Shown here: one piece after another, positions 1 to 41,910 of the stretch
Numbering within the stretch: the stretch's first letter is position 1
How the letters are laid out: each line of letters starts with the position of its first letter
Sequence record: MZ234008.1
DNA: 45,019 nt
Reading direction: 5' to 3' (one strand)
DNA from: Escherichia phage vB_EcoS-22664B1
Notes under the pieces: generated by a model
The model's input: the letters and a program-made list of their open reading frames with translations, nothing else
Database searches by the model: none
Told to the model about the DNA's origin: nothing
Program-made: the position numbers and the translations under genes

Positions 1-74
1 ATGGTGAGTGAAAAATGCAGTTTGCAGTTACAGCAGATAGGGATCGGCTTTTTCATACGCATGATTAATATTGG

Positions 75-103
75 TTGCATTCAGCCTAGCACCCTGCTAG
101 ATT
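75..103 (+). promoter_or_regulatory. putative sigma70-like promoter for left-end genes (-35 TTGCAT, 17-nt spacer, -10 TAGATT) flanked by two TTGGTTGCA copies
   Basis: Motif copies at 71-79 and 102-110; hexamers read directly. Confidence 0.35.
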
Positions 104-3265: not shown

Positions 3266-3295
3266 CTTGACTTGCAACCAACATAAGGGCCATAC
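3266..3295 (+). promoter_or_regulatory. putative sigma70-like promoter (-35 TTGACT, 18-nt spacer containing TGCAACCAA, -10 CATACT)
   Basis: Hexamer matches read from sequence; spacer carries the recurrent GCAACCAA motif, with a second copy just downstream. Confidence 0.35.
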
Positions 3296-3327
3296 TGCAA
3301 CCAATCAACGAGAAGGAGTAATACACT

Positions 3328-3470: not shown

Positions 3471-4668
3471 ATGCACCCGCAAACTAAAATTACCGACGAG
3501 CAATTGATCGCTGAATTGCAATCTGGCACTACCTCGAAAGATATTGCGAAGAAATACGGCATTGCCCTTCGAAATGTCTATATGCGCAAAGCCCGCCTGT
3601 CGAAGAAAGGCATTGGTCACGGTAACGATGCCGTAATCCGTAAGCGCGTTGCCGATGGCTTCGGCGTTAAGCGTGTATCAGCCCTGGTGCGCGGCAATGG
3701 CGAAGAGGTCATGTCCTGGGTCATCACCGAGCAAGACAAGGAGCGCCAGCTTGAAGCAATGCGCGCCGTTGTCGAGGGCATGAATAGCGAAATCACACCG
3801 GCAGCACCAGTGAGCGCTCCGCCAGTCCCGATCCAGGCGCTTGACCTGCTTAACCTGTATACCGTGTCGGACTTCCACCTGGGAATGTTGGCGTGGGGCG
3901 AGGAGACTGGCGAGGACTGGGATATGGCAATCGCTGAAGACCTGTTCTACCGCTGGTTTGTCGAAGCCTTCGCCCGCGCACCGGACGCTGGAAGACCTGT
4001 TCTACCGCTGGTTTGTCGAAGCCTTCGCCCGCGCACCGGACGCTGGCACTGCCGTAATCAATATTCTCGGTGATATGGCGCATTTTGACAGCCTCGACGC
4101 CGTCACGCCAGCCAGTGGTCACGTACTGGACGCAGATACCCGCTACCAGAAACTGGTCCGCTACATGATTCGCATGGTGCGCAACGTGGTTGAACTGGCG
4201 CTGCAAAAACACCATAAGGTCAAACTGTTAATCGTCCAGGGTAATCATGATGAGTCCGGTATGATTTGGCTGGCTGAGATGTTCAATACCCTGTACGAGA
4301 ACGAGCCGCGCGTTGATGTGGACACGTCCCCGGACGTTTACAAAATGGTGCAGCACGGTAAAACAACGCTGTTCTTCCACCACGGACACAAAGCACGCTT
4401 TGACGCCATCGAACCGGTCATGATTTCTAAATTCAGACAGGCTTTCGGGTCCAGTGAGTACAGCTACGCGCACGTGGGCCACTTGCACCACCAGAAGATT
4501 GTTGAATCCCGCAACATGATTGTTGAACAGCACCGGACCCTTGCCGCGAAAGACGCATATGCGAGCCGCGGCGGTTGGATGTCTGGTCGTAGTGCTAACG
4601 TCATCACCTATAGCGCCAACTACGGCGAAGTAGCGCGCTTAACCATTAGCCCGGAAATGTTGAAATGA
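3471..4668 (+). pseudogene. HTH domain + calcineurin-like metallophosphoesterase gene, split by a 55-bp tandem duplication (frameshift)
   Basis: N-terminal HTH-like segment; metallophosphoesterase motifs SDFHLG, GDMAHFD, GNHDE, HHGH, GHLHH. ORFs 3471..4073 and 3841..4668 are the same gene in two frames; removing one 55-bp copy (3936-3990 or 3991-4045) restores one ORF of about 380 aa. Confidence 0.6.
3936..4045. repeat. perfect tandem duplication, 2 x 55 bp
   Basis: Unit gaagacctgttctaccgctggtttgtcgaagccttcgcccgcgcaccggacgctg occurs twice in tandem; cgctg microhomology at the junction. Confidence 0.9.
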
Positions 4669-4877
4669 TTAGACAAGTATTCATGAGCACGCAGGCCACC
4701 CGCCTGAAAGAGCTTCGCAAACAGCTTGAAGGCTTGCGCCGATTCGAACGAACGGCAGCGGCAATAGGCATGTCTATCAGTGAGCGGATCGAGATACTAT
4801 CGCAGATACGCTACACAGAAGGCGCTATAAGCGAAGTAGAAAGCATGTTGACCAGATACTACGGTCGAGCCGTTTAA
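4665..4877 (+). CDS. hypothetical protein (70 aa)
   Basis: ORF overlapping previous stop (ATGA); followed by terminator. Confidence 0.45.
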   Translation: MIRQVFMSTQATRLKELRKQLEGLRRFERTAAAIGMSISERIEILSQIRYTEGAISEVESMLTRYYGRAV

Positions 4878-4884
4878 CCCTCCC

Positions 4885-4910
4885 AGCCCGCCGATTTGGT
4901 GGGCTTTTTT
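4885..4910 (+). terminator. rho-independent terminator
   Basis: agcccgcc / ggtgggct stem (one G-U) followed by TTTTTT. Confidence 0.5.
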
Positions 4911-4994
4911 GTGCCTGTTATAATCCCCCTTAGATGGCTGGGCCGTCTCCTATGTTGCCGATGGTCGGCGCATATGCATAAAAGGGCTTATATC

Positions 4995-5546
4995 ATGGCA
5001 GAAATCAAAGTTAAGGGCCGTCGTGCCAAACTGGACGGACGAGTAGCAGTTACCCCGCGCCGTAAACCAGGCGAGCAAACAGAACACACCAATCTTGGAC
5101 CAGAGATCGAATACGGCAAGCGTCGTAAAGGCGGCAAATGCGGACGCCCGACCGACTACCGCACCGTGTATTGTGACCAGCTTCGTCGCTATTTCGCCGA
5201 TGCCGTAGCCTGGCAGATCAACTACTCCGACAAGGGCGCTGCGCAAGTCATCCCTCGAAACATGATGCCGACTCTCGGTCGATTCGCTGCAAATATTGGT
5301 GTAGGCATCGCCTGCCTGTATCGCTGGGCGCGCGCACATGAGGAGTTCGCCGAAGCGATGGCGGACGCTATGGAGTTGCAGAAAACTTTCCTGATGGAAG
5401 CTGGCGGCGTGACCATCGCGGCGGGCTTCGCTACGTTCCTGCTTAAAGCCAACCACGGCATTCGTGACGATGCGCCGCTGGATGACGACGAAGATGATAA
5501 CGGCGACGTCGTTGTGGAACCTACCGGCAAAGGCCAGGGTGAGTAA
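4995..5546 (+). CDS. terminase small subunit (putative)
   Basis: Position immediately upstream of TerL with overlapping stop/start; basic N-terminal region, acidic C-terminus; assignment mainly by synteny. Confidence 0.5.
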   Translation: MAEIKVKGRRAKLDGRVAVTPRRKPGEQTEHTNLGPEIEYGKRRKGGKCGRPTDYRTVYCDQLRRYFADAVAWQINYSDKGAAQVIPRNMMPTLGRFAANIGVGIACLYRWARAHEEFAEAMADAMELQKTFLMEAGGVTIAAGFATFLLKANHGIRDDAPLDDDEDDNGDVVVEPTGKGQGE

Positions 5547-6931
5547 TGCGTAACTATGCGGCAGAACACCGCGCACTTGAACGCGCGATCGCAAAGCGCA
5601 ACCGACCGCCACGCCCTACGCGCGTTGCGCAGGCCGTCCGCCTGTATCAGCCTGATTGCCTTCCGCACCAGGTAGAACTGCTGCGCGACACGAAGACTAA
5701 AATCCTCGGCCTTTGCTCCGGCTTCGGTGGCGGAAAGTCGTGGGTAGCGGCGCGTAAGGTCATCCAGCTTCTCACACTTAACCCCGGTCATGATGGCATC
5801 GTTACAGAACCGACTATTCCACTCCTGGTTAAAATCATGTACCCGGAGCTTGAGAAGGCATTCGACGAGGCTGGATTCCGGTGGAAGTTCAACAAGCAAG
5901 ACAAGATTTATAGCGTGCTGGTGAAAGGCAAATGGACCCGCGTTATTTGTGAGTCAATGGAGAACTACACCCGCCTGATCGGGGTTAACGCCGCGTGGAT
6001 TGTTGCCGATGAGTTCGACACCACTAAGCAAGACGTAGCTATGGCGGCATATCACAAATTGCTTGGTCGTCTGCGTGCGGGCCTGGTGCGCCAGTTCGTC
6101 ATCGTATCCACGCCTGAAGGCTTCCGGGCGATGTACCAGATTTTCGAAGTGGAGAAGGATAGCCAGAAACGTTTGATCAGGGCGAAGACTACCGATAATC
6201 ACCACTTACCGGCAGACTTTATCGACACGCTGCGGAGCCAGTACCCGGCAAACCTGATTGATGCATACCTGAACGGCCTGTTTGTCAACCTTACGTCTGG
6301 CGCGGTCTACAAGATGTTTAACCGCGAAGAGAACGCCAGCACCGAGGAAGTGCAACCGGATGATACGCTGATTATCGGTATGGACTTTAACGTAACGAAA
6401 ATGGCGGCGGTTGTGTACGTCAGACGGCAGCACACTACCGAGAACAAGGAGTTCCGCGACGAGATTCACGCAGTGGATGAATTCGTGGACCTGTTTGATA
6501 CCCCGGCTATGATTGAGGCGATCGAGGAGCGCTACCCCGATCATTGTGCTGCCGGTCGGGTCGTCGTTTACCCGGATAGCAGTGGCAAGTCTCGTAAGAC
6601 TGTTAACGCATCGTCGTCCGATATCGCGCAACTGGAAGACGCTGGCTTCGAGGTGGAGTATGACAGCGTCAACCCGCCTGTAAAAGACAGATTGATCGCG
6701 ATGAATACGATGATGTGCAACTCGAAGGGCGTGCGCCAGTATTTTGTCAACATGGATAAATGCCCTACACTAGCGAAATGTCTGGAACAGCAGGTTTATG
6801 ACCTGAAGAAAGGCGAGCCGGATAAAACCGCCGGTGTGGACCACATGAACGATGCCGCAGGCTACCCTGTTGCGCACCTGTTCCCAGTGATTCGTCCAAT
6901 CGCCGTTGTTCCAACTGTAGACTTCTACTAA
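5546..6931 (+). CDS. terminase large subunit
   Basis: Walker A-like LCSGFGGGKS and Walker B-like IVADEFD ATPase motifs plus C-terminal nuclease-sized domain; 461 aa. Confidence 0.85.
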   Translation: MRNYAAEHRALERAIAKRNRPPRPTRVAQAVRLYQPDCLPHQVELLRDTKTKILGLCSGFGGGKSWVAARKVIQLLTLNPGHDGIVTEPTIPLLVKIMYPELEKAFDEAGFRWKFNKQDKIYSVLVKGKWTRVICESMENYTRLIGVNAAWIVADEFDTTKQDVAMAAYHKLLGRLRAGLVRQFVIVSTPEGFRAMYQIFEVEKDSQKRLIRAKTTDNHHLPADFIDTLRSQYPANLIDAYLNGLFVNLTSGAVYKMFNREENASTEEVQPDDTLIIGMDFNVTKMAAVVYVRRQHTTENKEFRDEIHAVDEFVDLFDTPAMIEAIEERYPDHCAAGRVVVYPDSSGKSRKTVNASSSDIAQLEDAGFEVEYDSVNPPVKDRLIAMNTMMCNSKGVRQYFVNMDKCPTLAKCLEQQVYDLKKGEPDKTAGVDHMNDAAGYPVAHLFPVIRPIAVVPTVDFY

Positions 6932-10762: not shown

Positions 10763-10791
10763 TTGTGTGTCCTCATTGTTGGTGTGCAACC

Positions 10792-10821
10792 AATATAGTG
10801 CAACCAATACCTGGATTGCAA
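10792..10821 (-). promoter_or_regulatory. putative sigma70-like promoter (-35 TTGCAA, 18-nt spacer with TTGGTTGCA, -10 TATATT) for 9998..10762
   Basis: Read on - strand; same architecture as promoter at 30187-30216 (shared block tatagtgcaaccaa ... ttgcaag ... aattttgc). Confidence 0.4.
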
Positions 10822-21584: not shown

Positions 21585-22192
21585 CCACATTTAAATTGTA
21601 CGGCGTCTTAGGACGTCGTTTTGGTAAAGTGCATAAGCTGGACTGCTTCACACCTGGCGAGGGTATCACCGGCCTATGCGTGAAGTTGCCAGGCTTACAG
21701 GACTTTCTAATGTCGGCCCACCTGGAAAACATGATGTTCAAGGTGCGCAAGGGTAATCACACAATGACCGGCTACGACGAGTTGGGTGAGTTCCACGGCG
21801 ACCGCGTAGTTACCATCGCGCCGGTTATGACTGGTGCTAAAAGCGGACTTGGACAATTGCTGGCTGGCGTAGCTATCGTGGTGGCGTCGTTCTACACTGG
21901 CGGGCTTGCCGCTTCCGCTTTCGGGGCTTCCGCTGCGACCGCCGCCGCTATCGGAACGGCGACGTTTTCGTTCGGTATGTCGCTTGCGCTGGGCGGCGCT
22001 ATGCAATTGTTGTCACCGCAACCGAAAGGATTGCAGACACGGCAGGACGTGGATAACAAGGCGTCGTATGCGTTTGGCGGGCCTGTAAACACGACCGCGC
22101 AAGGTACGGCACTTGGTGTATTATGGGGCGAGCGTGAGATCGGCGGCGCTATTATTTCAGCCGGAATTGTAACCGAGGATTTGAACGAATGA
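21575..22192 (+). CDS. tail assembly protein, lambda I-like
   Basis: 205 aa with Gly/Ala-rich hydrophobic C-terminal half; located just before the J-like gene. Confidence 0.6.
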   Translation: MAMTTFKLYGVLGRRFGKVHKLDCFTPGEGITGLCVKLPGLQDFLMSAHLENMMFKVRKGNHTMTGYDELGEFHGDRVVTIAPVMTGAKSGLGQLLAGVAIVVASFYTGGLAASAFGASAATAAAIGTATFSFGMSLALGGAMQLLSPQPKGLQTRQDVDNKASYAFGGPVNTTAQGTALGVLWGEREIGGAIISAGIVTEDLNE

Positions 22193-25100
22193 CGATTGTA
22201 TACGACGTCACGGGTCATAAAGGCGGCGGTGGCAAACAGCACACCCCACAGGAGACGCCTGATAGCCTGCATTCGCTGGCTAAAATCCGCATCTTGCTCG
22301 CACTGGGCGAGGGCGAATTTGAAGGCATTCCCGACCCTAACGAATTACGGCAGCGTGTATACCTGGACGGCACACCGATCCAGAACGCCGACCTGTCGGA
22401 TAACTTCCCCGGCGCGCGTGTGGAGTTCCGCCCCGGCACGCAGCACCAGGATGTGATTCACGGTTTTTCAGCGGTGGAAAGCGAGCAAACAGTAGGCGTA
22501 AAACTGGAGAACGGCGCGCCGTGGGTGCGCCAGATTTCGGACACCAGTTTGGACGCCGTGCGCATTCGAATCGGTATTCCGGCCCTGTACACCAACGAAG
22601 ATAACGGCGACCTGGTGGGCGGGCGCATCGACTATAAAATCGTTGTGTATACAGATAACGCCGATCCGCGCGAGTTCACATTCGCTGCCGTTGGTAAAAC
22701 AATGTCGCTGTACGAGCGAGATCACCGCATCGAATTACCGTCTAACGTTAACACCGGCTGGCGCGTGGAGGTGATCCGCACAACGGCAGACTCCACATCG
22801 GCGAAAGTGGTCAACGATATCCAGGTACAATCCATTACTGAGATTATCGACGCCCGCCTGCGATACCCGCTAACCGCGCTGTTGTTCGTGGAGTTCGATG
22901 CTAAGGCGTTCCAGAACATCCCGCGTGTGTCCATCAAGTGCAAAGGCCGCAAAGTGCTGGTCCCGAACAACTATGACCCCGTGAATCATACCTATTCTGG
23001 TAACTGGGACGGCACATTTAAACGCGCCTGGACGGATAACCCTGCGTGGCACTGGTACGATATTTGTATTACTGAGCGCTTCGGCCTCGGTCGTCGTGTC
23101 AAACCACAAATGCTAAACCGTTACGCGCTCTACCAGATTGCGCAGCGCTGCGACCAGATGGTCAGTGACGGCAACGGCGGTCAGGAAATCCGATTTAAGA
23201 ATGATATGTACATTCAATCGCAGACCGACGCCTGGACCGTGCTGAAGGATTTAGCGGCTATCTTTGCTGGGATGACCTGGTGGGGCAACCAGATGCTGAA
23301 TATTGTCAGTGACCAGCCGGTCGCAGCGGTATCGCATACTATCACCAACGCCTCGGTTATTGATGGTCGATTCGACTACGCATCGGGAAGCCAGAAAACT
23401 CGGTATTCCACGTTCTCGGTAGCCTACGGCAACCCGAAAAACCATTACGAGGACGCCATCGCAACGGGCCAGCGTGTCGAACTGGTGCGCCGCCATAAGA
23501 TTAACCGCCTTGATATTACGGCGATCGGCTGTACGCGTGAATCTGAAGCGCAACGCCGCGGACACTGGGCGCTAATCTCCAACCAGCTTGATCAGCAAGT
23601 TAGCTTTAAGGTTGGCATGGAGGGGTTATTCTTTATTCCGGGGAGCGTAGTCGCGATCGCAGATACTAACATTTCTGGCGGCTTCGAGACACGCGGCGGA
23701 CGTCTGTTGTCAGATCCGGGCACGCGCACCGTGCTGAACACGGACAGCGAAATCACGTTCCGCCCTGGCGATAAATTCCTGGTGCGCACCGATAGCGGTA
23801 ATGTGGAGACTCGCGAGATTGCCAGCGTCAACGGCAACCAGGTCACGCTAAAAACCGCACTGGACGCCGACCCAATTCCTGATCAGCCGTTTTGCGTTGA
23901 TGGCGATGATATCCAGTTGCAGAAGTTCCGCATCACCGACCTGGAATATGACGACGCTACCAGCACTTTCTCGGTGCGCGGGATTGAGTACAATGACAGC
24001 AAATATGATGCCGTTGATAATGGCGCGCGTCTTGATCCGGGTATCTTCACGCAAGTGCCGGACGGTGTAATGAAGGGGCCAGAATCCGTTACCATCACCC
24101 CGTCGCAGATCTCATCACAAGGCCAGCTAATCACCAACGTGGATATTGTTTTTCCGCCGGTGAAGGATGCCGTTGTGTACGAAATCCAGTGGCGACGTAC
24201 CAGCTTGCAGAATCTGGAAATCCAGTGGGGCAACGACTGGGTTAACATCCCCCGCACGGCGTCGAATGGTGCGCATATCCCGAACGTGTTTTCTGGTAAC
24301 TACCAGGCACGCGTCCGCGCTATCGGTATGGGCGAGATTTCATCCCCGTGGGTGTCATCCGCCATCACGCCGGTGGAGGGTCGTCTTGGTGGGCTTAACG
24401 CGCCTATCATCACCAACGCGATTTCGGGCCTTCACCAAATTTTGTGGAAGTGGAATCACAACAACGCCGCAACGGATATTTCGTATACCGAGCTTGAAGT
24501 ACGCAAGCTGGGCGAAACGGAATGGAAATTCCTAACCAACGTCCCATATCCGGGGTCGGACTATGCGCAAACGTCGCTGGAGTTCGGGATCTACCAGCAG
24601 TTGCGCGCACGCGTAGCGGATAAAATCGGCAACCTGTCAGACTGGTCCGATCCGTTCGACGGGCAGGTGAGTGACAAAGTTGACGAGTACATGCAGGGGC
24701 TTGATGACGAGTTCTTGACTTCCGAGGACGGTAAACACTTCCAGGAAGCAATCGACACCATTCCGCAAGGCATCTATGAGTCAATGCTTACGGACGCCCA
24801 GCAGTTATTCAACGCCCGCGCCGAGTATAAAGGGATTTATGCAGAAATTACGGTGGCGTATAACGTGGCGGCGGACGCTCACGAAGCCGTAGCGCAACTG
24901 GAAACGTTAATCGGCACGCGCCTTGACGACGCCGAAGCGTCAATCCACACGTTGCAGACCGCGCAAAGCACGCATGAGCAAGCATTCGCCCAGTACCAAC
25001 AAACTGTTGCCGCTAAGTTCGGGGAGCAGGAAGCTGCCATCCAGCAGGTACAAACGGCAACGGCAGACGTAGCGGGCGCGCTGGCGGAGTATAAGACCCA

Positions 25101-25635
25101 GGTCGCGGCACAGTTCGGTCAGCAGTCCGCAGCTATCGAGCAGAAGATGACGTCCTCGTTTAACCATGCTGGCGGTAGCGCCACATACAGCCTTAAGGCT
25201 GGCGTGACGTATAACGGGACTTACTATGATGCCGGTATGCAGCTTTCCGTCGTGGCGGAAGGTGGCGCGGTTAAATCACGCATCGCGTTCAAGGCGGACC
25301 AGTTCTACATCATGCACCCATCTAACGGGTCGCTCTCGTCCGCGTTTATCGTTGACGGCGGGCAGGTGTATATTGACACGGCACGCATCAAGAACGCGTC
25401 TATTAACTTCGCGCAGATCACGGACACGCTGCAATCCAATAACTGGAATCCAGGTAACAGCGGCTGGCGTATCGCGAAGGATGGCGGGGCGGAGTTCAAC
25501 AACGTTACGGTACGCGGCAACTTGTTCGCAACTACGGGTAACTTTGGATTCTCCGGCGGGTCAGTGACTATCGACGCAACGGGCGTCAACGTGCCATTAC
25601 CTGGAGGGGGCAGGGTGAAAGTCGGGACGTGGTAA
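22189..25635 (+). CDS. tail tip / host specificity protein (lambda J-like central fibre)
   Basis: 1148-aa ORF after K/I-like genes; size and position typical of J-like proteins. Confidence 0.8.
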   Translation: MTIVYDVTGHKGGGGKQHTPQETPDSLHSLAKIRILLALGEGEFEGIPDPNELRQRVYLDGTPIQNADLSDNFPGARVEFRPGTQHQDVIHGFSAVESEQTVGVKLENGAPWVRQISDTSLDAVRIRIGIPALYTNEDNGDLVGGRIDYKIVVYTDNADPREFTFAAVGKTMSLYERDHRIELPSNVNTGWRVEVIRTTADSTSAKVVNDIQVQSITEIIDARLRYPLTALLFVEFDAKAFQNIPRVSIKCKGRKVLVPNNYDPVNHTYSGNWDGTFKRAWTDNPAWHWYDICITERFGLGRRVKPQMLNRYALYQIAQRCDQMVSDGNGGQEIRFKNDMYIQSQTDAWTVLKDLAAIFAGMTWWGNQMLNIVSDQPVAAVSHTITNASVIDGRFDYASGSQKTRYSTFSVAYGNPKNHYEDAIATGQRVELVRRHKINRLDITAIGCTRESEAQRRGHWALISNQLDQQVSFKVGMEGLFFIPGSVVAIADTNISGGFETRGGRLLSDPGTRTVLNTDSEITFRPGDKFLVRTDSGNVETREIASVNGNQVTLKTALDADPIPDQPFCVDGDDIQLQKFRITDLEYDDATSTFSVRGIEYNDSKYDAVDNGARLDPGIFTQVPDGVMKGPESVTITPSQISSQGQLITNVDIVFPPVKDAVVYEIQWRRTSLQNLEIQWGNDWVNIPRTASNGAHIPNVFSGNYQARVRAIGMGEISSPWVSSAITPVEGRLGGLNAPIITNAISGLHQILWKWNHNNAATDISYTELEVRKLGETEWKFLTNVPYPGSDYAQTSLEFGIYQQLRARVADKIGNLSDWSDPFDGQVSDKVDEYMQGLDDEFLTSEDGKHFQEAIDTIPQGIYESMLTDAQQLFNARAEYKGIYAEITVAYNVAADAHEAVAQLETLIGTRLDDAEASIHTLQTAQSTHEQAFAQYQQTVAAKFGEQEAAIQQVQTATADVAGALAEYKTQVAAQFGQQSAAIEQKMTSSFNHAGGSATYSLKAGVTYNGTYYDAGMQLSVVAEGGAVKSRIAFKADQFYIMHPSNGSLSSAFIVDGGQVYIDTARIKNASINFAQITDTLQSNNWNPGNSGWRIAKDGGAEFNNVTVRGNLFATTGNFGFSGGSVTIDATGVNVPLPGGGRVKVGTW

Positions 25636-25640
25636 ATGAG

Positions 25641-25665
25641 AAGGGGCCATCCGGCCCCTTTTTTA
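25641..25665. terminator. rho-independent terminator (aggggcc atcc ggcccct + T-run), between convergent genes
   Basis: Stem-loop with T6 on + strand; the - strand gene 25663..26637 ends right beside it. Confidence 0.65.
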
Positions 25666-26637
25666 ATAGATATTAGGAATGACGAGTAACGGGGTGGGTA
25701 CGGCAATATTTTTGCCCGGCATTTGGAATTGCTGCCGTGAGTAGTTGCCAATGACGCGGTTTTTGGCGATGCGCACATTATTACCCGCCATTCGTATCCC
25801 GTTCATGCGCACATGGTTATAGCCGCTGTTGTTCTCAATGAGCGCACCGGTATATGAAAGCTGGATCAGACTATTACCGATGTGCTGGTCGCCGCCACCG
25901 ATATTAATCGTGCGGTCGTAGACAAACGGCTTGTTTACCGTCGAGAACGTGACCTGCCCCTGGTTGTTAGTCATGGTGATACCGGTCCCCGGTGAGGGCG
26001 GCGTATTGTTGAATATCACCAGGTCCATATCAACGGCAGCGCCTACGTCGTCAATCCCGCCATAGGACGCATTACGGACAATGATACTTCCGCCATCGAA
26101 GCCAACCGATACGTTGCCGTCGTCCCAGCGCGCGAACGGGACACCGCCGACGGGAAGCGGCATACTTCCGTTTACATGCACGCGCTGCGCATATCGGCAG
26201 GTCATTAGCCGTGCGACGTTGGATATTGCGGTGAAGTCCGTTGAGTTAGCTACCAGTAAGCCCGCATTGCGTGACCCCACCGGCAGCACTTCCATAATCA
26301 CCCCGCCCCATGTTGGAAGCCCGCTGTATGCGTTATAGGCATCCTCACCGCGCAAGGTGATTCCGCCATCCCCGTTACGTTGTATCGACGTCACATAAAA
26401 CGGGTCTGGCAAGACCAGGGTCTGGTCGAATACTTCCATCACTTCTACCGGATTAGTTAGGGCAACGACCAGTTCGGACCCCGGTGTCAGCGGTGTGTTA
26501 ATGGTCAGCGTCTTGTCAGACTGACAGCGCTGATTAAAGGTAGTGCAGAACGACGGAGCGCGAAGGCCCGCGGTTATCTCCATGACAGGTCTACCGTCGT
26601 TGTAGTCGATAAGTATTCCAGCACCCATTATTACCAC
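25663..26637 (-). CDS. hypothetical protein (324 aa), possible tail/receptor-binding-associated protein
   Basis: Intact - strand ORF between J-like gene and tail fibre; Gly/Asn/Thr-rich, beta-rich composition; function unknown. Confidence 0.5.
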   Translation of the reverse strand: MVIMGAGILIDYNDGRPVMEITAGLRAPSFCTTFNQRCQSDKTLTINTPLTPGSELVVALTNPVEVMEVFDQTLVLPDPFYVTSIQRNGDGGITLRGEDAYNAYSGLPTWGGVIMEVLPVGSRNAGLLVANSTDFTAISNVARLMTCRYAQRVHVNGSMPLPVGGVPFARWDDGNVSVGFDGGSIIVRNASYGGIDDVGAAVDMDLVIFNNTPPSPGTGITMTNNQGQVTFSTVNKPFVYDRTINIGGGDQHIGNSLIQLSYTGALIENNSGYNHVRMNGIRMAGNNVRIAKNRVIGNYSRQQFQMPGKNIAVPTPLLVIPNIY

Positions 26638-26852
26638 TCCCGTGATTTAACTGATACAGTACCTGAGAAATTGCCGTCGCTATCGGCAGATAGGCCAGTG
26701 AAGCGCATGTCCACGTCTCCGGCAGGGACTTTTTGCCCGTCAACATAACGCAACATGCAGCTTCCGTAAGCCACCGTAATGCAATCACCGTTGTTGCGTT
26801 CTACGGCACAACCGGACAAAAGAACAGCACAAATCATAATTAAAGTTTTCAT
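26631..26852 (-). CDS. small lipoprotein (73 aa; possible superinfection-exclusion lipoprotein)
   Basis: Start MKTLIMICAVLLSGC with lipobox LSGC and AGGAG RBS-like sequence; first gene of the two-gene - strand cassette. Confidence 0.6.
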   Translation of the reverse strand: MKTLIMICAVLLSGCAVERNNGDCITVAYGSCMLRYVDGQKVPAGDVDMRFTGLSADSDGNFSGTVSVKSREW

Positions 26853-26932
26853 GTTATCATCTCCTATATTTGGTTGAGTTTTAGTATTACACCGCTCGAT
26901 CAAGAATGCAACCAATTTATGAGGATTCAGCT

Positions 26933-28975
26933 ATGGCAGCGGGTACACTATCCGTAACGAATAACAGCACCGCGGTGACTGGAGACGGCACAACGCTTAC
27001 CGCGCTGAAGGCTGGCGACTTCCTGTCGCTGGTAGTAGGGCAAGTCCCTTACACTATTGCTATTGCATCCATTGAGAGCGACACCGCGCTTACACTGGCG
27101 CTGCCGTTCGATGGCCCAACGGCAACCGGCCTCGCATGGGATAGCGTGGCGCGCGATACCATGTCCCTTGCAACGATGGGCGTAACCGTCCAGGCGCAGA
27201 AAGCACTACGCTTGATGATCGCGGATGAAAACAACTGGCGTGCAATCTTCGGCGACGCTGAAGAAGTCACGGTAACGCTGCCAAACGGGCAAGTTATGCA
27301 GGGAATGTCATGGGGCTACCTGTCATCCTTGTTGAAGGAAGTAGACCCCGTCGAAATGCGCGACCTGCAACAACAAGCCGCCGCATCGGAAGCCGCCGCG
27401 CTGGTGTCGCGCAATGAGGCCGAAGGCTTCAAGAACGATGCCAATGCCATCAAGACGCAGACCGACCAAATCAAGACTGACACGCAGGCAATCCACGACG
27501 CCACCAATACGATCAAGACGCAGACCGACCAGATTAAGACCGATACGCAGTCTATCAAGGACCAGACCGACCAGATTAAGACGGATACTGGCGTTATTCG
27601 CGATGAAGCCAATACTGCGAAGACTGACGCGCAAGCCGCCAGCACTGCCGCGCAGGGATTTCGCGATCAGGCCGAAGAATGGGCGCAAAGCGTAAACGCG
27701 GATAATCTGCTAACTAAATCCGGCAACCTTGCAGGCGTTGCCGATGTGCAGACGTCGCGCACCAACCTCGAACTGGGGGAGGGTAACGAGCCTATTTTTA
27801 AGGGTGCTCTCGCTGTTAAATCAGCCCCCGACACCGTATCGGCACAGGGCGGAATGTTCCAGTCTAAGCTAAAGAATAGCAACGGTGAGGACGTGGTAAC
27901 GACGCAAAGCTACGCAGAAACACAACTAGGGACCGGAAAGCACACGATCGGCGTAATCACGCCTTCGGGGGCACATTACTATCAACTCGACGTCGAAGGT
28001 AACTTTAACGGATTCAAGCGCCTGTCGTCTGCGCAGGGTGGCGAATTACTTCTGAACGGCGTCGATAGTAACACCGTGCAGCTACTGTCGCTTAACCCAC
28101 CAAAGCCGAACGACTATACCGGATTCACGCGGTATAACTGGCAAAATAGCGCGGTGTTTACCGGGCCGATTCGTCAGGGAGGGACGGGGCTTGAAGCCTA
28201 TGAGGTCTACGTCCTGAATGCTGGCGTGGCGGAATGGCGCTACCGGTTTAGACCCGATGGAAAGATGTCCGCCAGACGACTTATCGCCGAAGGTTTCCAG
28301 ACCGGCTGGGACCAGCCTAACAACTACGGGGACAGCGGTGTGTGGCTATCTGACGTCGGAAATAACGACGGCGGCTGGGTTCCTGCAATCTCCTGGCAGT
28401 CCCAATCAACCGGCGGTTACCCTATCCGCGCCACGTGGGGGCTTATCTCTCAGGGCACGGCGAACTGGCCCCGTGCGGCATTGCGATGCCGAGGGGATGG
28501 CGAAAACTGGACAAACTTCGAGTTCGTCGTTAACAGTTGCGATATCCAGGTCAGCGGTACATTCGGCGCGTACACATTTTCCAAAGCGCCTACGTCCGAC
28601 CGTGACCTGAAGCACGATATTAAGTACACGGAAGGGAAAGAAAGCTACGATCGAGTGATGCAGTGGCTTCCCACAATGTTTAAGTATAAAGGGTCGGAAA
28701 TCCAGCGCTATGGCCTTATCGCGCAGGACCTGGTGAAAATCGATCCGCAATACGTGAAGATTATCCCCGGCGCACTTAAAAACCCGGACCTCGTAGGGAC
28801 TGAAGGATTCAAAGCCGAAGACGGCGACTACTACGACGACACGCTGGCACTTGACAGCAACGTCATGTTAACAGATATGGCGTGCGCGATGGTCTTCATG
28901 GGGCGTAAAGTGGAAGATATGCAGAAAGAACTGGAGGAATTGAAAGCTGCCGTAGCGGCACTGACCAAAGCATAA
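26933..28975 (+). CDS. tail fibre with C-terminal intramolecular chaperone (peptidase S74-like) domain
   Basis: C-terminus SDRDLKHDIKY...YGLIAQDLVKIDPQYV matches the auto-cleaving chaperone domain seen in T5 L-shaped fibres and endosialidases; central TDQIKTDTQ repeats; start MAAGTLSV with GAGGA RBS-like sequence. Confidence 0.8.
   Translation: MAAGTLSVTNNSTAVTGDGTTLTALKAGDFLSLVVGQVPYTIAIASIESDTALTLALPFDGPTATGLAWDSVARDTMSLATMGVTVQAQKALRLMIADENNWRAIFGDAEEVTVTLPNGQVMQGMSWGYLSSLLKEVDPVEMRDLQQQAAASEAAALVSRNEAEGFKNDANAIKTQTDQIKTDTQAIHDATNTIKTQTDQIKTDTQSIKDQTDQIKTDTGVIRDEANTAKTDAQAASTAAQGFRDQAEEWAQSVNADNLLTKSGNLAGVADVQTSRTNLELGEGNEPIFKGALAVKSAPDTVSAQGGMFQSKLKNSNGEDVVTTQSYAETQLGTGKHTIGVITPSGAHYYQLDVEGNFNGFKRLSSAQGGELLLNGVDSNTVQLLSLNPPKPNDYTGFTRYNWQNSAVFTGPIRQGGTGLEAYEVYVLNAGVAEWRYRFRPDGKMSARRLIAEGFQTGWDQPNNYGDSGVWLSDVGNNDGGWVPAISWQSQSTGGYPIRATWGLISQGTANWPRAALRCRGDGENWTNFEFVVNSCDIQVSGTFGAYTFSKAPTSDRDLKHDIKYTEGKESYDRVMQWLPTMFKYKGSEIQRYGLIAQDLVKIDPQYVKIIPGALKNPDLVGTEGFKAEDGDYYDDTLALDSNVMLTDMACAMVFMGRKVEDMQKELEELKAAVAALTKA
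27447..27590. repeat. imperfect tandem repeats inside tail fibre gene (cagaccgaccagattaagaccgatacg units)
   Basis: Three to four nucleotide repeats encoding (A/T)IKTQTDQIKTDTQ. Confidence 0.7.
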
Positions 28976-28980
28976 TTAGA

Positions 28981-29004
28981 AGGGGCCGTACGGCCCCTTT
29001 TTTA
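28981..29004 (+). terminator. rho-independent terminator (aggggccg ta cggcccct + T-run)
   Basis: Perfect stem-loop plus T6; the - strand gene 29002..29577 ends here. Confidence 0.7.
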
Positions 29005-30186: not shown

Positions 30187-30216
30187 ACTATAGTGCAACC
30201 AACCTATTGGTTGCAA
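30187..30216 (-). promoter_or_regulatory. putative sigma70-like promoter (-35 TTGCAA, 18-nt spacer, -10 TATAGT) overlapping palindrome TGCAACCAA-ccta-TTGGTTGCA
   Basis: Read on - strand; perfect 9-bp inverted repeat at 30194-30216 inside the spacer region. Confidence 0.4.
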
Positions 30217-32101: not shown

Positions 32102-32135
32102 AAGATAATGCAACCAATCTAATTACGCAACCAAT

Positions 32136-41859: not shown

Positions 41860-41910
41860 ATAATAGATTGGTTGCAGGTGGGGTGTCAACAACTAATTTC
41901 AAAAAAAAAA
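41860..41910 (-). promoter_or_regulatory. putative strong early promoter for leftward operon (-10 TATTAT, 18-nt spacer with TGCAACCAA, -35 TTGACA, upstream A/T tract as UP-like element)
   Basis: On - strand: T10 tract (plus 41901-41910), TTGACA (41889-41884), spacer, TATTAT (41865-41860). Confidence 0.5.

What the first reader, a model, noticed from the sequence alone, without database searches (positions are those of the whole stretch)
25663..26852. Opposite-strand lipoprotein + 324-aa protein cassette between the J-like gene and the tail fibre
Between the J-like gene and the S74-chaperone fibre, both on the + strand, lies a two-gene - strand cassette: a small lipoprotein (signal peptide with lipobox LSGC) overlapping by 7 nt a 324-aa Gly/Asn-rich protein. 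In T5-like phages the lipoprotein Llp blocks the receptor and is encoded next to the receptor-binding protein gene; T1-family cor genes play a similar role. By analogy the lipoprotein may be a superinfection-exclusion factor and the 324-aa protein a receptor-binding or fibre-associated protein. The first motif copy at 26907-26915 lies in the intergenic region shared with the fibre gene.
Basis: inference. Interest (0 to 1): 0.65.

Follow-up and report, generated by a model that had tools for sequence, protein, structure and literature searches.

The report
LptD-binding tail protein plus exclusion lipoprotein
This two-gene cassette of a Dhillonvirus coliphage encodes the tail-tip protein that docks the phage onto the host's LptD outer-membrane channel, plus a small lipoprotein that jams that channel from the periplasm to stop further phage binding.

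Summary
Between the J-like gene (22189-25635, +) and the S74-chaperone fibre (+) lies a minus-strand operon: a 73-aa lipoprotein (26852-26631, lipobox LSGC) followed by a receptor-binding protein (RBP). The RBP most likely starts at ATG 26628 (321 aa), 2 nt after the lipoprotein stop. The 324-aa GTG start with a 7-nt overlap is less likely.

The lipoprotein belongs to Pfam PF24052. It is 99% identical to phage Oekolampad's exclusion lipoprotein and 36% identical to Rtp45 (PDB 9RPS), with both disulfide cysteines conserved. The larger protein is DUF6453 (397 bits) and 89% identical over its full length to Oekolampad's RBP (PDB 9RPT). [quoted passage not shown]

Published genetics (Maffei 2021) and cryo-EM (Dunbar 2025) already define this "RBP locus downstream of gpJ" as the LptD-specificity module. 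Its lipoprotein binds the periplasmic face of LptD and displaces loop EL4.

The resemblance to T5 Llp/pb5 and to Cor is functional only, not homology. The cassette region is 100% identical to GenBank MZ234014.1. Novelty: already known; interest is low. Side observations: a 9-mer operator-like motif found across the genome, twin bidirectional terminators, and a DUF6453 gene next to the Kuravirus tail needle gene.

The parts
22189..25635 (+). J-like central tail fibre / tail-tip protein (1148 aa). Its C-terminal Phage_Tail_Tip domain (aa 982-1118) is the presumed docking platform for the RBP.
   Evidence: Pfam PF24801, PF13550 and PF09327; phrog_31 'central tail fiber J'. It is 94.8% identical to, and the same length as, Oekolampad J. 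Docking of the RBP onto it is inferred from Maffei 2021 and the 2026 preprint.
25643..25658 (.). Bidirectional intrinsic terminator hairpin GGGGCC-ATCC-GGCCCC. It is flanked by A/T runs and sits between the convergent stops of J (25635) and the RBP gene (25663).
   Evidence: Folds at -18.7 kcal/mol (+ strand) and -15.7 kcal/mol (- strand), z = -2.7 and -2.5. Coordinates. A 'terminator' feature is annotated here in phage WFI. The consensus scan missed it.
25663..26628 (-). Receptor-binding protein of the central tail fibre (321 aa, 34.4 kDa, DUF6453). Predicted to bind the extracellular face and lumen of LptD.
   Evidence: PF20051 at 397 bits; phrog_1265. 89.1% identical to PDB 9RPT_C, 98.8% to Bas85 and 33% to Rtp44. 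No transmembrane segment: maximum Kyte-Doolittle 19-residue score is 1.2.
26631..26852 (-). Superinfection-exclusion lipoprotein precursor (73 aa; mature form 59 aa, 6.3 kDa). The signal peptide is aa 1-14, the lipobox is LSGC with lipidated Cys15 (codon 26810-26808), and the +2 residue is Ala.
   Evidence: PF24052 Phage_lipoprotein at 75 bits; phrog_4281. 99% identical to Oekolampad gp26. 36% identical to Rtp45 / PDB 9RPS_D. Cys24 and Cys32 align with the Rtp45 Cys30-Cys38 disulfide.
26637..26641 (-). Shine-Dalgarno GGGAG for the RBP gene, 8 nt upstream of ATG 26628 and inside the 3' end of the lipoprotein gene. This arrangement suggests translational coupling.
   Evidence: Read directly from the sequence.
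26853..26932 (.). 80-nt AT-rich (36% GC) divergent intergenic region. It should hold the promoters for the SE-RBP operon (leftward) and the fibre gene (rightward). The candidate leftward promoter is TTGCAT (26911-26906), a 17-nt spacer, then TG-T-AATACT (-10 at 26888-26883). The lipoprotein Shine-Dalgarno AGGAG is at 26865-26861.
   Evidence: GC content and sequence. The region is conserved in Bas85 and Oekolampad. The promoter is my reading of the sequence: it matches only 7 of 12 consensus positions plus an extended -10, and it fell below the scan threshold. It is inferred, not shown.
26907..26915 (+). Copy of the genome-wide 9-mer TGCAACCAA. It overlaps the candidate -35 of the leftward promoter. 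A degenerate inverted copy (TTGGTTGAG) lies at 26870-26878.
   Evidence: 12 exact copies in the window against about 0.34 expected. The copy is conserved in Bas85 and Oekolampad.
26933..28975 (+). Lateral tail fibre (680 aa from ATG 26933) with a C-terminal S74 intramolecular chaperone. It is the presumed primary receptor (O-antigen) binder and is not part of the cassette.
   Evidence: Peptidase_S74 at aa 564-618 of the longer ORF; phrog_1980. The start follows MZ234014.1, Bas85 and Oekolampad. Its role follows Maffei 2021 and Humolli 2025.
28982..28997 (.). Second bidirectional terminator hairpin, GGGGCC-GTAC-GGCCCC, between the fibre stop (28975) and the next minus-strand gene (stop at 29002). 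It isolates the fibre gene as its own transcription unit. The SE-RBP operon therefore cannot be fed by read-through from the minus-strand early/replication block.
   Evidence: Folds at -20.7 kcal/mol, z = -3.85.

Best explanation
The cassette is the LptD-type 'receptor-binding-protein locus' that small siphoviruses carry directly downstream of their gpJ homologue. This locus is found in Drexlerviridae, Dhillonvirus and Queuovirinae.

The two genes form a leftward operon. It starts in the 80-nt divergent intergenic region and ends at the hairpin shared with J.

Gene 1 encodes a lipoprotein precursor. After Sec export and lipidation at Cys15 it should be sorted to the inner leaflet of the outer membrane, because the +2 residue is Ala. 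There it binds the periplasmic rim of the LptDE lipopolysaccharide translocon. It pushes a beta-hairpin up the LptD lumen and displaces extracellular loop EL4. Incoming phage, and progeny released among cell debris, can then no longer bind. This is superinfection exclusion.

Gene 2 encodes a soluble 34-kDa protein. [quoted passage not shown] At infection it plugs deep into an open state of the LptD barrel, contacting loops EL3-5 and EL11. This gives irreversible adsorption after the lateral fibre has found the O-antigen.

What is shown and what is inferred: the binding modes of the RBP and the exclusion lipoprotein are shown experimentally for orthologues (89% and 36-99% identity). For this phage, the receptor, the docking on J, the operon structure and the promoter are inferred.
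For: Sequence identity to solved proteins:
- RBP versus PDB 9RPT_C: E=2e-192, 286/321 identical, no gaps.
- Lipoprotein versus PDB 9RPS_D (Rtp45): E=2e-8, 36% identical, both disulfide cysteines and a VPAG(D/E)VD(M/V)R(F/Y) block conserved.
- Lipoprotein versus Oekolampad bas18_0026: 72/73 identical.

Family membership: PF20051 at 397 bits and PF24052 at 75 bits.

Synteny: the layout J -> (RBP <- lipoprotein) on the opposite strand is the same in Bas85, Oekolampad, Rtp and Shfl1.

Literature:
- Maffei 2021 matched this locus allele to LptD through lptD resistance mutants of Oekolampad.
- Dunbar 2025 solved the RBPOeko-LptDE and Rtp45-LptDE structures and showed that LptD point mutants abolish binding.
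- Humolli 2025 predicts LptD for Bas83-85; the Bas85 RBP is 98.8% identical to this one.
- The 2026 preprint finds that the RBP families at this locus, each defined by more than 30% identity, are receptor-specific.

Both genes are under purifying selection relative to Oekolampad: differing codons are 113 synonymous against 35 non-synonymous in the RBP gene, and 19 against 1 in the lipoprotein gene. Gln299, named in the paper as an LptD contact, is conserved.
Against: Nothing has been measured for this phage itself.
- The RBP differs from Oekolampad's at 35 positions, concentrated in aa 27-108. I could not map these onto the interface, because the contact table in the SI is an image.
- The exclusion structure was solved for Rtp45, which is only 36% identical. 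The Oekolampad lipoprotein could not be expressed by the authors.
- An in vivo exclusion phenotype for this lipoprotein family rests on Wietzorrek 2006. I could not read that paper and cite it only from memory.
- No consensus sigma-70 promoter passes the scan in the intergenic region.
- Attachment of the RBP to J has not been visualised in any phage.
Confidence: 0.9

Rival explanations
1. The module has the same architecture, but this RBP allele recognises a different outer-membrane protein, or a different set of LptD loops or LptD variants, than Oekolampad's RBP. Its 35 substitutions would be the cause.
For: There are 35 amino-acid differences clustered in aa 27-108, and the RBP gene has lower nucleotide identity (81%) than its flanks (89-90%). 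Maffei 2021 reports a similarity dip at this locus among Dhillonviruses. Single LptD point mutations can abolish binding, so the interface is sensitive.
Against: Far more divergent members (33-43% identity: Rtp44, Bas01, Shfl1-type) are still LptD-associated. The families at this locus are reported to be receptor-specific at more than 30% identity. The cognate lipoprotein is 99% identical to Oekolampad's, so it targets the same receptor. The C-terminal third, including Gln299, is almost unchanged.
Confidence: 0.05
2. The lipoprotein is a Cor/Llp-type blocker of FhuA or another TonB-dependent transporter and acts by allostery.
For: A weak PHROG hit to 'Cor superinfection exclusion protein' (phrog_1119, E=6e-4). 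Some homologues are auto-annotated as Cor in GenBank (H45).
Against: The Cor hit covers only aa 1-30, which is the signal peptide and lipobox. The whole protein matches PF24052 and phrog_4281 instead. It aligns end to end with Rtp45, which was solved on LptDE. The partner RBP binds LptD, which is not a TonB-dependent transporter.
Confidence: 0.01
3. The 321-aa protein is a non-structural 'membrane protein' moron expressed for host takeover, as the PHROG and pharokka labels say, and is not a virion component.
For: phrog_1265 is labelled 'membrane protein; moron, auxiliary metabolic gene and host takeover'. The same label is propagated in many GenBank records. The gene is on the opposite strand to the tail operon.
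Against: There is no hydrophobic segment compatible with a transmembrane helix: maximum Kyte-Doolittle 19-residue score is 1.2. The 89%-identical protein is soluble and binds the extracellular face of LptDE at 2.8 Å. Allelic variants at this locus track receptor specificity. In Kuravirus SU10 a DUF6453 gene directly follows the tail-needle gene, which carries the same tip domain as J.
Confidence: 0.02

Closest known systems
Phage Oekolampad (Bas18, Dhillonvirus) RBP_Oeko (gp25) and SE_Oeko (gp26 / bas18_0026); PDB 9RPT, 9RPW, 9RQI
   Same: Same genus, same gene order and strand, and same gene lengths (321 and 73 aa). The RBP is 89.1% identical and the lipoprotein 98.6%. J is the same length and 94.8% identical.
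   Different: The RBP has 35 substitutions, mostly in aa 27-108, including an extra Cys35. The lateral fibre is different. Nothing has been measured for this phage.
Phage Rtp (Drexlerviridae) Rtp44 / Rtp45; PDB 9RPS (Rtp45-LptDE-LptM)
   Same: Same two-gene minus-strand module immediately after the J homologue and the same Pfam families. The disulfide cysteines and the central VPAGxVDxR block of the lipoprotein are conserved.
   Different: Identity is only 33% (RBP) and 36% (lipoprotein). The genes overlap by 1 nt in Rtp, against a 2-nt gap here. The phage family is different.
Phage T5 pb5 (RBP) and Llp (lipoprotein), targeting FhuA
   Same: Same logic: a dedicated RBP at the tip of the central fibre, with an adjacent gene for a small periplasmic lipoprotein that blocks the same receptor from inside.
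   Different: No detectable sequence homology in my family searches. The receptor is a TonB-dependent transporter. Llp acts by long-range allostery, whereas Rtp45-type lipoproteins physically push loop EL4 out of place.
Cor lipoproteins of T1, phi80 and N15 (FhuA exclusion)
   Same: A small outer-membrane lipoprotein encoded near the tail-fibre genes that prevents adsorption of the same phage.
   Different: Not the same family: only the signal peptide matches phrog_1119. Cor proteins target FhuA.

Membership tests
DUF6453 / LptD-type RBP of small siphoviruses (Rtp44, RBP_Oeko) | Full-length match to Pfam PF20051 above the gathering score | tested here: met
   396.7 bits against a cut-off of 25; aa 4-297 match profile positions 1-290 of 291.
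DUF6453 / LptD-type RBP of small siphoviruses (Rtp44, RBP_Oeko) | More than 30% identity over about the full length to experimentally LptD-linked RBPs (criterion of the 2026 preprint) | tested here: met
   89.1% to RBP_Oeko / 9RPT_C over 321 of 321 aa. 33% to Rtp44 over the full length.
DUF6453 / LptD-type RBP of small siphoviruses (Rtp44, RBP_Oeko) | [quoted passage not shown] | tested here: met
   The J stop is at 25635 and the RBP stop at 25663, with the lipoprotein gene immediately upstream. The layout is the same in Bas85, Oekolampad, Rtp and Shfl1.
DUF6453 / LptD-type RBP of small siphoviruses (Rtp44, RBP_Oeko) | Physical binding to LptDE, and dependence of infection on LptD loops EL4, EL5 and EL11 | not testable with these tools
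   Shown only for Oekolampad. It needs plating on lptD mutants or a pull-down.
DUF6453 / LptD-type RBP of small siphoviruses (Rtp44, RBP_Oeko) | Virion component attached to the tip of the J-like fibre | not testable with these tools
   Inferred in the literature. Indirect support comes from Kuravirus SU10, where a gene with the Phage_Tail_Tip domain is adjacent to a DUF6453 gene.
Rtp45-type superinfection-exclusion lipoprotein (Pfam PF24052 Phage_lipoprotein) | Match to PF24052 above the gathering score | tested here: met
   75.4 bits against a cut-off of 27; aa 3-73 match profile positions 8-80 of 80.
Rtp45-type superinfection-exclusion lipoprotein (Pfam PF24052 Phage_lipoprotein) | Type II signal peptide with a lipobox Cys and no Asp at +2 (outer-membrane sorting) | tested here: met
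   MKTLIMICAVLLSG|C-A-V: lipobox LSGC with Ala at +2. The hydrophobic core scores 2.7 on the Kyte-Doolittle scale. The sorting rule is established knowledge (Lol avoidance signal).
Rtp45-type superinfection-exclusion lipoprotein (Pfam PF24052 Phage_lipoprotein) | Conserved intramolecular disulfide pair (Rtp45 Cys30-Cys38) | tested here: met
   Cys24 and Cys32 align with Rtp45 Cys30 and Cys38 and are invariant in the 4-sequence alignment. The disulfide is described.
Rtp45-type superinfection-exclusion lipoprotein (Pfam PF24052 Phage_lipoprotein) | Binds the periplasmic face of LptDE and confers exclusion | not testable with these tools
   A structure exists only for Rtp45. The Oekolampad orthologue, 99% identical to this one, could not be expressed by the authors.
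Cor superinfection-exclusion family (T1, phi80, N15) | Homology across the mature protein | tested here: not met
   The phrog_1119 hit (E=6e-4) covers only aa 1-30, which is the signal peptide.
T5 Llp / pb5 | Sequence homology to Llp or pb5 | tested here: not met
   No Llp or pb5 family appears among the Pfam or PHROG hits. No T5 chain appears among the PDB hits for the RBP at E<=0.01 or for the lipoprotein at E<=1.

The most novel reading that the evidence does not exclude
The lipoprotein may do more than exclude phage. It threads a hairpin up the LptD lumen and sits between LptE and LptM, so it might also throttle or re-route lipopolysaccharide export in the infected cell. In addition, it is co-transcribed and probably translationally coupled with a structural gene from a promoter overlapped by a genome-wide operator-like motif. 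Exclusion may therefore be a regulated, late function, aimed mainly at saving progeny from binding to debris rather than at blocking superinfection.
Probability: 0.12. Interest if true: 0.45.

Novelty: already known. Interest (0 to 1): 0.12.

Why it matters
It matters little as a discovery. The module, its receptor and both binding modes were published between 2021 and 2025, and the sequence of this cassette is already in GenBank, labelled only 'hypothetical protein' and 'lipoprotein'.

Its practical value is in annotation and prediction. This phage can be assigned LptD as its terminal receptor with high confidence. The PHROG-derived label 'membrane protein / moron' for DUF6453 proteins is misleading. 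The case also shows that reading the sequence alone can recover an RBP/exclusion module correctly.

Tried and rejected
- Cor membership: rejected. The PHROG hit covers only the signal peptide.
- The 'membrane protein' label: rejected. There is no transmembrane segment, and the orthologue is soluble and binds LptDE extracellularly.
- GTG 26637 start with a 7-nt overlap: rejected in favour of ATG 26628.
- ATG 26906 as the fibre start: rejected in favour of 26933.
- The consensus promoter/terminator scan found neither the obvious hairpin terminator nor a convincing promoter in the intergenic region. I confirmed the hairpins by folding. The promoter stays a hand-read candidate.
- I tried to map the 35 substitutions onto the LptD interface using the paper's SI, but the contact table is an image.
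- I tried to read Wietzorrek 2006 for the Rtp45 phenotype, but it is not held.
- I did not run structure prediction or fold search, because an 89%-identical experimental structure exists.
- The window is not base-for-base identical to MZ234014.1 across the genome. The coordinate offsets differ (30 nt at the start, 85 nt at the cassette), so there are indels elsewhere. The 1701 nt around the cassette are 100% identical.
Full report
**What is there.** The ORF list and the sequence confirm a two-gene minus-strand cassette at 25663-26852. It sits between the J-like gene (22189-25635, +) and a + strand fibre with a C-terminal Peptidase_S74 chaperone.

The upstream gene (26852-26631) encodes a 73-aa precursor, MKTLIMICAVLLSG|CAVE.... 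It has a lipobox LSGC, a lipidated Cys15 and Ala at +2.

The downstream gene is listed mechanically as 324 aa from GTG 26637, which overlaps the lipoprotein gene by 7 nt. An ATG at 26628 lies 2 nt after the lipoprotein's TAA and 8 nt after a GGGAG Shine-Dalgarno, and the last G of that Shine-Dalgarno is the first base of the GTG. GenBank records for MZ234014.1, Bas85 and Oekolampad all use the 321-aa start. Rtp44 aligns from that same Met, and the functional recombinant protein in the PDB begins there. So the protein is 321 aa, and the two genes are adjacent rather than overlapping.

**Transcription unit.** J and the RBP gene converge on a GC-rich hairpin at 25643-25658 (GGGGCC-ATCC-GGCCCC). 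It is flanked by A/T runs and folds well on both strands. A near-identical hairpin at 28982-28997 separates the fibre gene from the next minus-strand gene.

The fibre gene and the cassette are therefore two isolated, divergent units. Both must start in the 80-nt, 36%-GC intergenic region 26853-26932; this takes the fibre start as ATG 26933, as in the GenBank annotations. By eye there is a candidate leftward promoter: TTGCAT, a 17-nt spacer, then TG-T-AATACT. The consensus scan did not report it, so it remains an inference.

It is conserved in Bas85 and Oekolampad.

**Identity of the genes.** The lipoprotein matches Pfam PF24052 'Phage lipoprotein family' (75 bits, cut-off 27) and phrog_4281. 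The larger protein matches DUF6453 / PF20051 (397 bits, cut-off 25) and phrog_1265.

The region 25400-27100 is 100% identical to Escherichia phage vB_EcoS-101114B2 (MZ234014.1, Dhillonvirus). It is 96-98% identical to WFI, CHD2B1 and the BASEL phages Bas83 and Bas85. tblastn finds the larger protein in 435 phage records of Escherichia, Shigella, Klebsiella, Salmonella and Cronobacter phages.

Against the PDB, the 321-aa protein hits a single sequence: 9RPT chain C ('Tail fiber protein', also in 9RPW and 9RQI). The match has E=2e-192 with 286/321 identical and no gaps. The lipoprotein hits 9RPS chain D ('Phage lipoprotein') at E=2e-8.

**What those structures are.** Dunbar et al. 2025 (PNAS, PMC12685063) report two relevant structures.
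- 9RPT is the RBP of Dhillonvirus Oekolampad (Bas18). It is inserted deep into an open state of the Shigella/E. coli LptDE lipopolysaccharide translocon, with an interface of about 1,700 Å2 and contacts to EL3-5 and EL11. Single LptD mutations (D352Y, Y671N) abolish both binding and infection.
- 9RPS is the lipoprotein Rtp45 of phage Rtp, bound at the periplasmic rim of LptD between LptE and LptM. A hairpin reaches up through the lumen and displaces EL4 by up to 20 Å, which is incompatible with RBP binding. This exclusion mechanism is steric, not allosteric as in T5 Llp/FhuA.

Earlier, Maffei et al. 2021 (PMC8594841) showed that small siphoviruses carry exchangeable 'bona fide RBP loci' directly downstream of gpJ, together with exclusion lipoproteins. 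They also showed that the Oekolampad/Rtp allele tracks with LptD. Humolli et al. 2025 predict LptD for Bas83-85. A 2026 preprint reports that the RBP families at this locus, each defined by more than 30% identity, are each specific for one receptor.

**How this window's genes compare.** The lipoprotein is identical to Bas85's, 72/73 identical to Oekolampad's, and 36% identical to Rtp45. Cys24 and Cys32 align with the Rtp45 Cys30-Cys38 disulfide, and a VPAG(D/E)VD(M/V)R(F/Y) block is conserved.

The RBP is 98.8% identical to Bas85's, 89.1% to Oekolampad's, 43% to Shfl1's and 33% to Rtp44. The 35 differences from Oekolampad cluster in aa 27-108. The C-terminal third is nearly invariant, including Gln299, which the paper names as an LptD EL4 contact.

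Relative to Oekolampad, differing codons are 113 synonymous against 35 non-synonymous in the RBP gene and 19 against 1 in the lipoprotein gene. Both genes are therefore under purifying selection, and the RBP evolves faster.

Gene order and strand are the same in Bas85, Oekolampad, Rtp and Shfl1. J is the same length as Oekolampad's and 94.8% identical. It does not have the C-terminal extensions seen in phages whose J itself binds TolC or LamB.

**Mechanism, with its basis.**
- Shown for orthologues: the RBP binds extracellular LptD, and the lipoprotein binds periplasmic LptD and blocks the RBP.
- Inferred here from 89-99% identity: the same holds for this phage, so its terminal receptor is LptD.
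- Inferred from established lipoprotein sorting rules: the mature 6.3-kDa lipoprotein goes to the inner leaflet of the outer membrane.
- Inferred from the literature, and from the adjacent pairing of a Phage_Tail_Tip gene with a DUF6453 gene in an unrelated podovirus: the RBP docks non-covalently on the tip domain of J.
- Inferred from sequence: the two genes are co-transcribed and probably translationally coupled.

**Rivals.**
- A switch of receptor by the divergent N-terminal half is unlikely. Members at 33-43% identity are still LptD-linked, and the cognate lipoprotein is essentially unchanged.
- Cor or Llp membership fails. The only Cor signal is the signal peptide.
- The widespread 'membrane protein / moron' label fails. 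There is no transmembrane segment, and the orthologue is a soluble extracellular ligand of LptD.

**Verdict.** The feature is already known and structurally characterised, and its sequence is public. Interest is low.

Noticed in passing
window 71-79, 102-110, 634-642, 3273-3281, 3296-3304, 10785-10793, 10799-10807, 26907-26915, 30194-30202, 30207-30215, 32109-32117, 41868-41876: The 9-mer TGCAACCAA occurs 12 times exactly, against about 0.34 expected, plus about 10 one-mismatch copies. Almost all copies are in intergenic regions. They often come in pairs 13-35 nt apart or as a palindrome (TGCAACCAAcctaTTGGTTGCA at 30194-30215). Some lie inside sigma-70-like promoters: at 41868 the copy sits in the spacer of TTGACA-N17-TATTAT, and at 3273 it lies just after TTGACT. 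It looks like the operator of an unidentified phage DNA-binding regulator.
   Followed up: partly
L005 (Kuravirus SU10, KM044272.1) 3689-5690: In the podovirus SU10, the tail-needle gene gp18 carries the same Phage_Tail_Tip domain (PF09327) as the C-terminus of J. It is followed directly by SU10_019, a full-length DUF6453 protein (83.5 bits; 26% identical to this RBP). The SU10 virion structure paper never mentions SU10_019. Kuraviruses may carry an unrecognised needle-tip RBP related to the LptD binders. No adjacent lipoprotein gene is annotated.
   Followed up: partly
window 25643-25658 and 28982-28997: Two near-identical bidirectional terminator hairpins (GGGGCC-NNNN-GGCCCC with flanking A and T runs) sit at both convergent gene junctions around the cassette and the fibre gene. 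The consensus terminator scan missed the first one.
   Followed up: yes
window 25663-26852 versus L002 (Oekolampad): The RBP gene diverges much faster than its partner and its flanks. Nucleotide identity to Oekolampad is 81% for the RBP gene, 90% for the lipoprotein gene and 89% for J. Amino-acid identity is 89% for the RBP against 99% for the lipoprotein. The lipoprotein gene also has a lower GC content (47.7%) than the genome (54.5%).
   Followed up: partly
search hits H18 (OQ221563.1 'Acinetobacter phage NJ01') and H42 (MG065665.1 'Campylobacter phage A131'): Records labelled as Acinetobacter and Campylobacter phages carry this E. coli-type J/RBP/lipoprotein locus (86% DNA identity for NJ01, 61% protein identity for A131). 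Their host labels look doubtful.
   Followed up: no
window 26906-26932: The longest fibre ORF starts at ATG 26906, but all annotated relatives start at ATG 26933, which has a GAGGA Shine-Dalgarno. The 27 extra nucleotides are intergenic and contain the TGCAACCAA motif.
   Followed up: yes
whole window versus MZ234014.1 (L006): The window (45,019 nt) and the GenBank record (44,971 nt) are collinear, but the coordinate offset changes from 30 nt at the start to 85 nt at the cassette. There are therefore indels in the first 25 kb, and the window is a very close relative or a different assembly rather than the identical record.
   Followed up: partly
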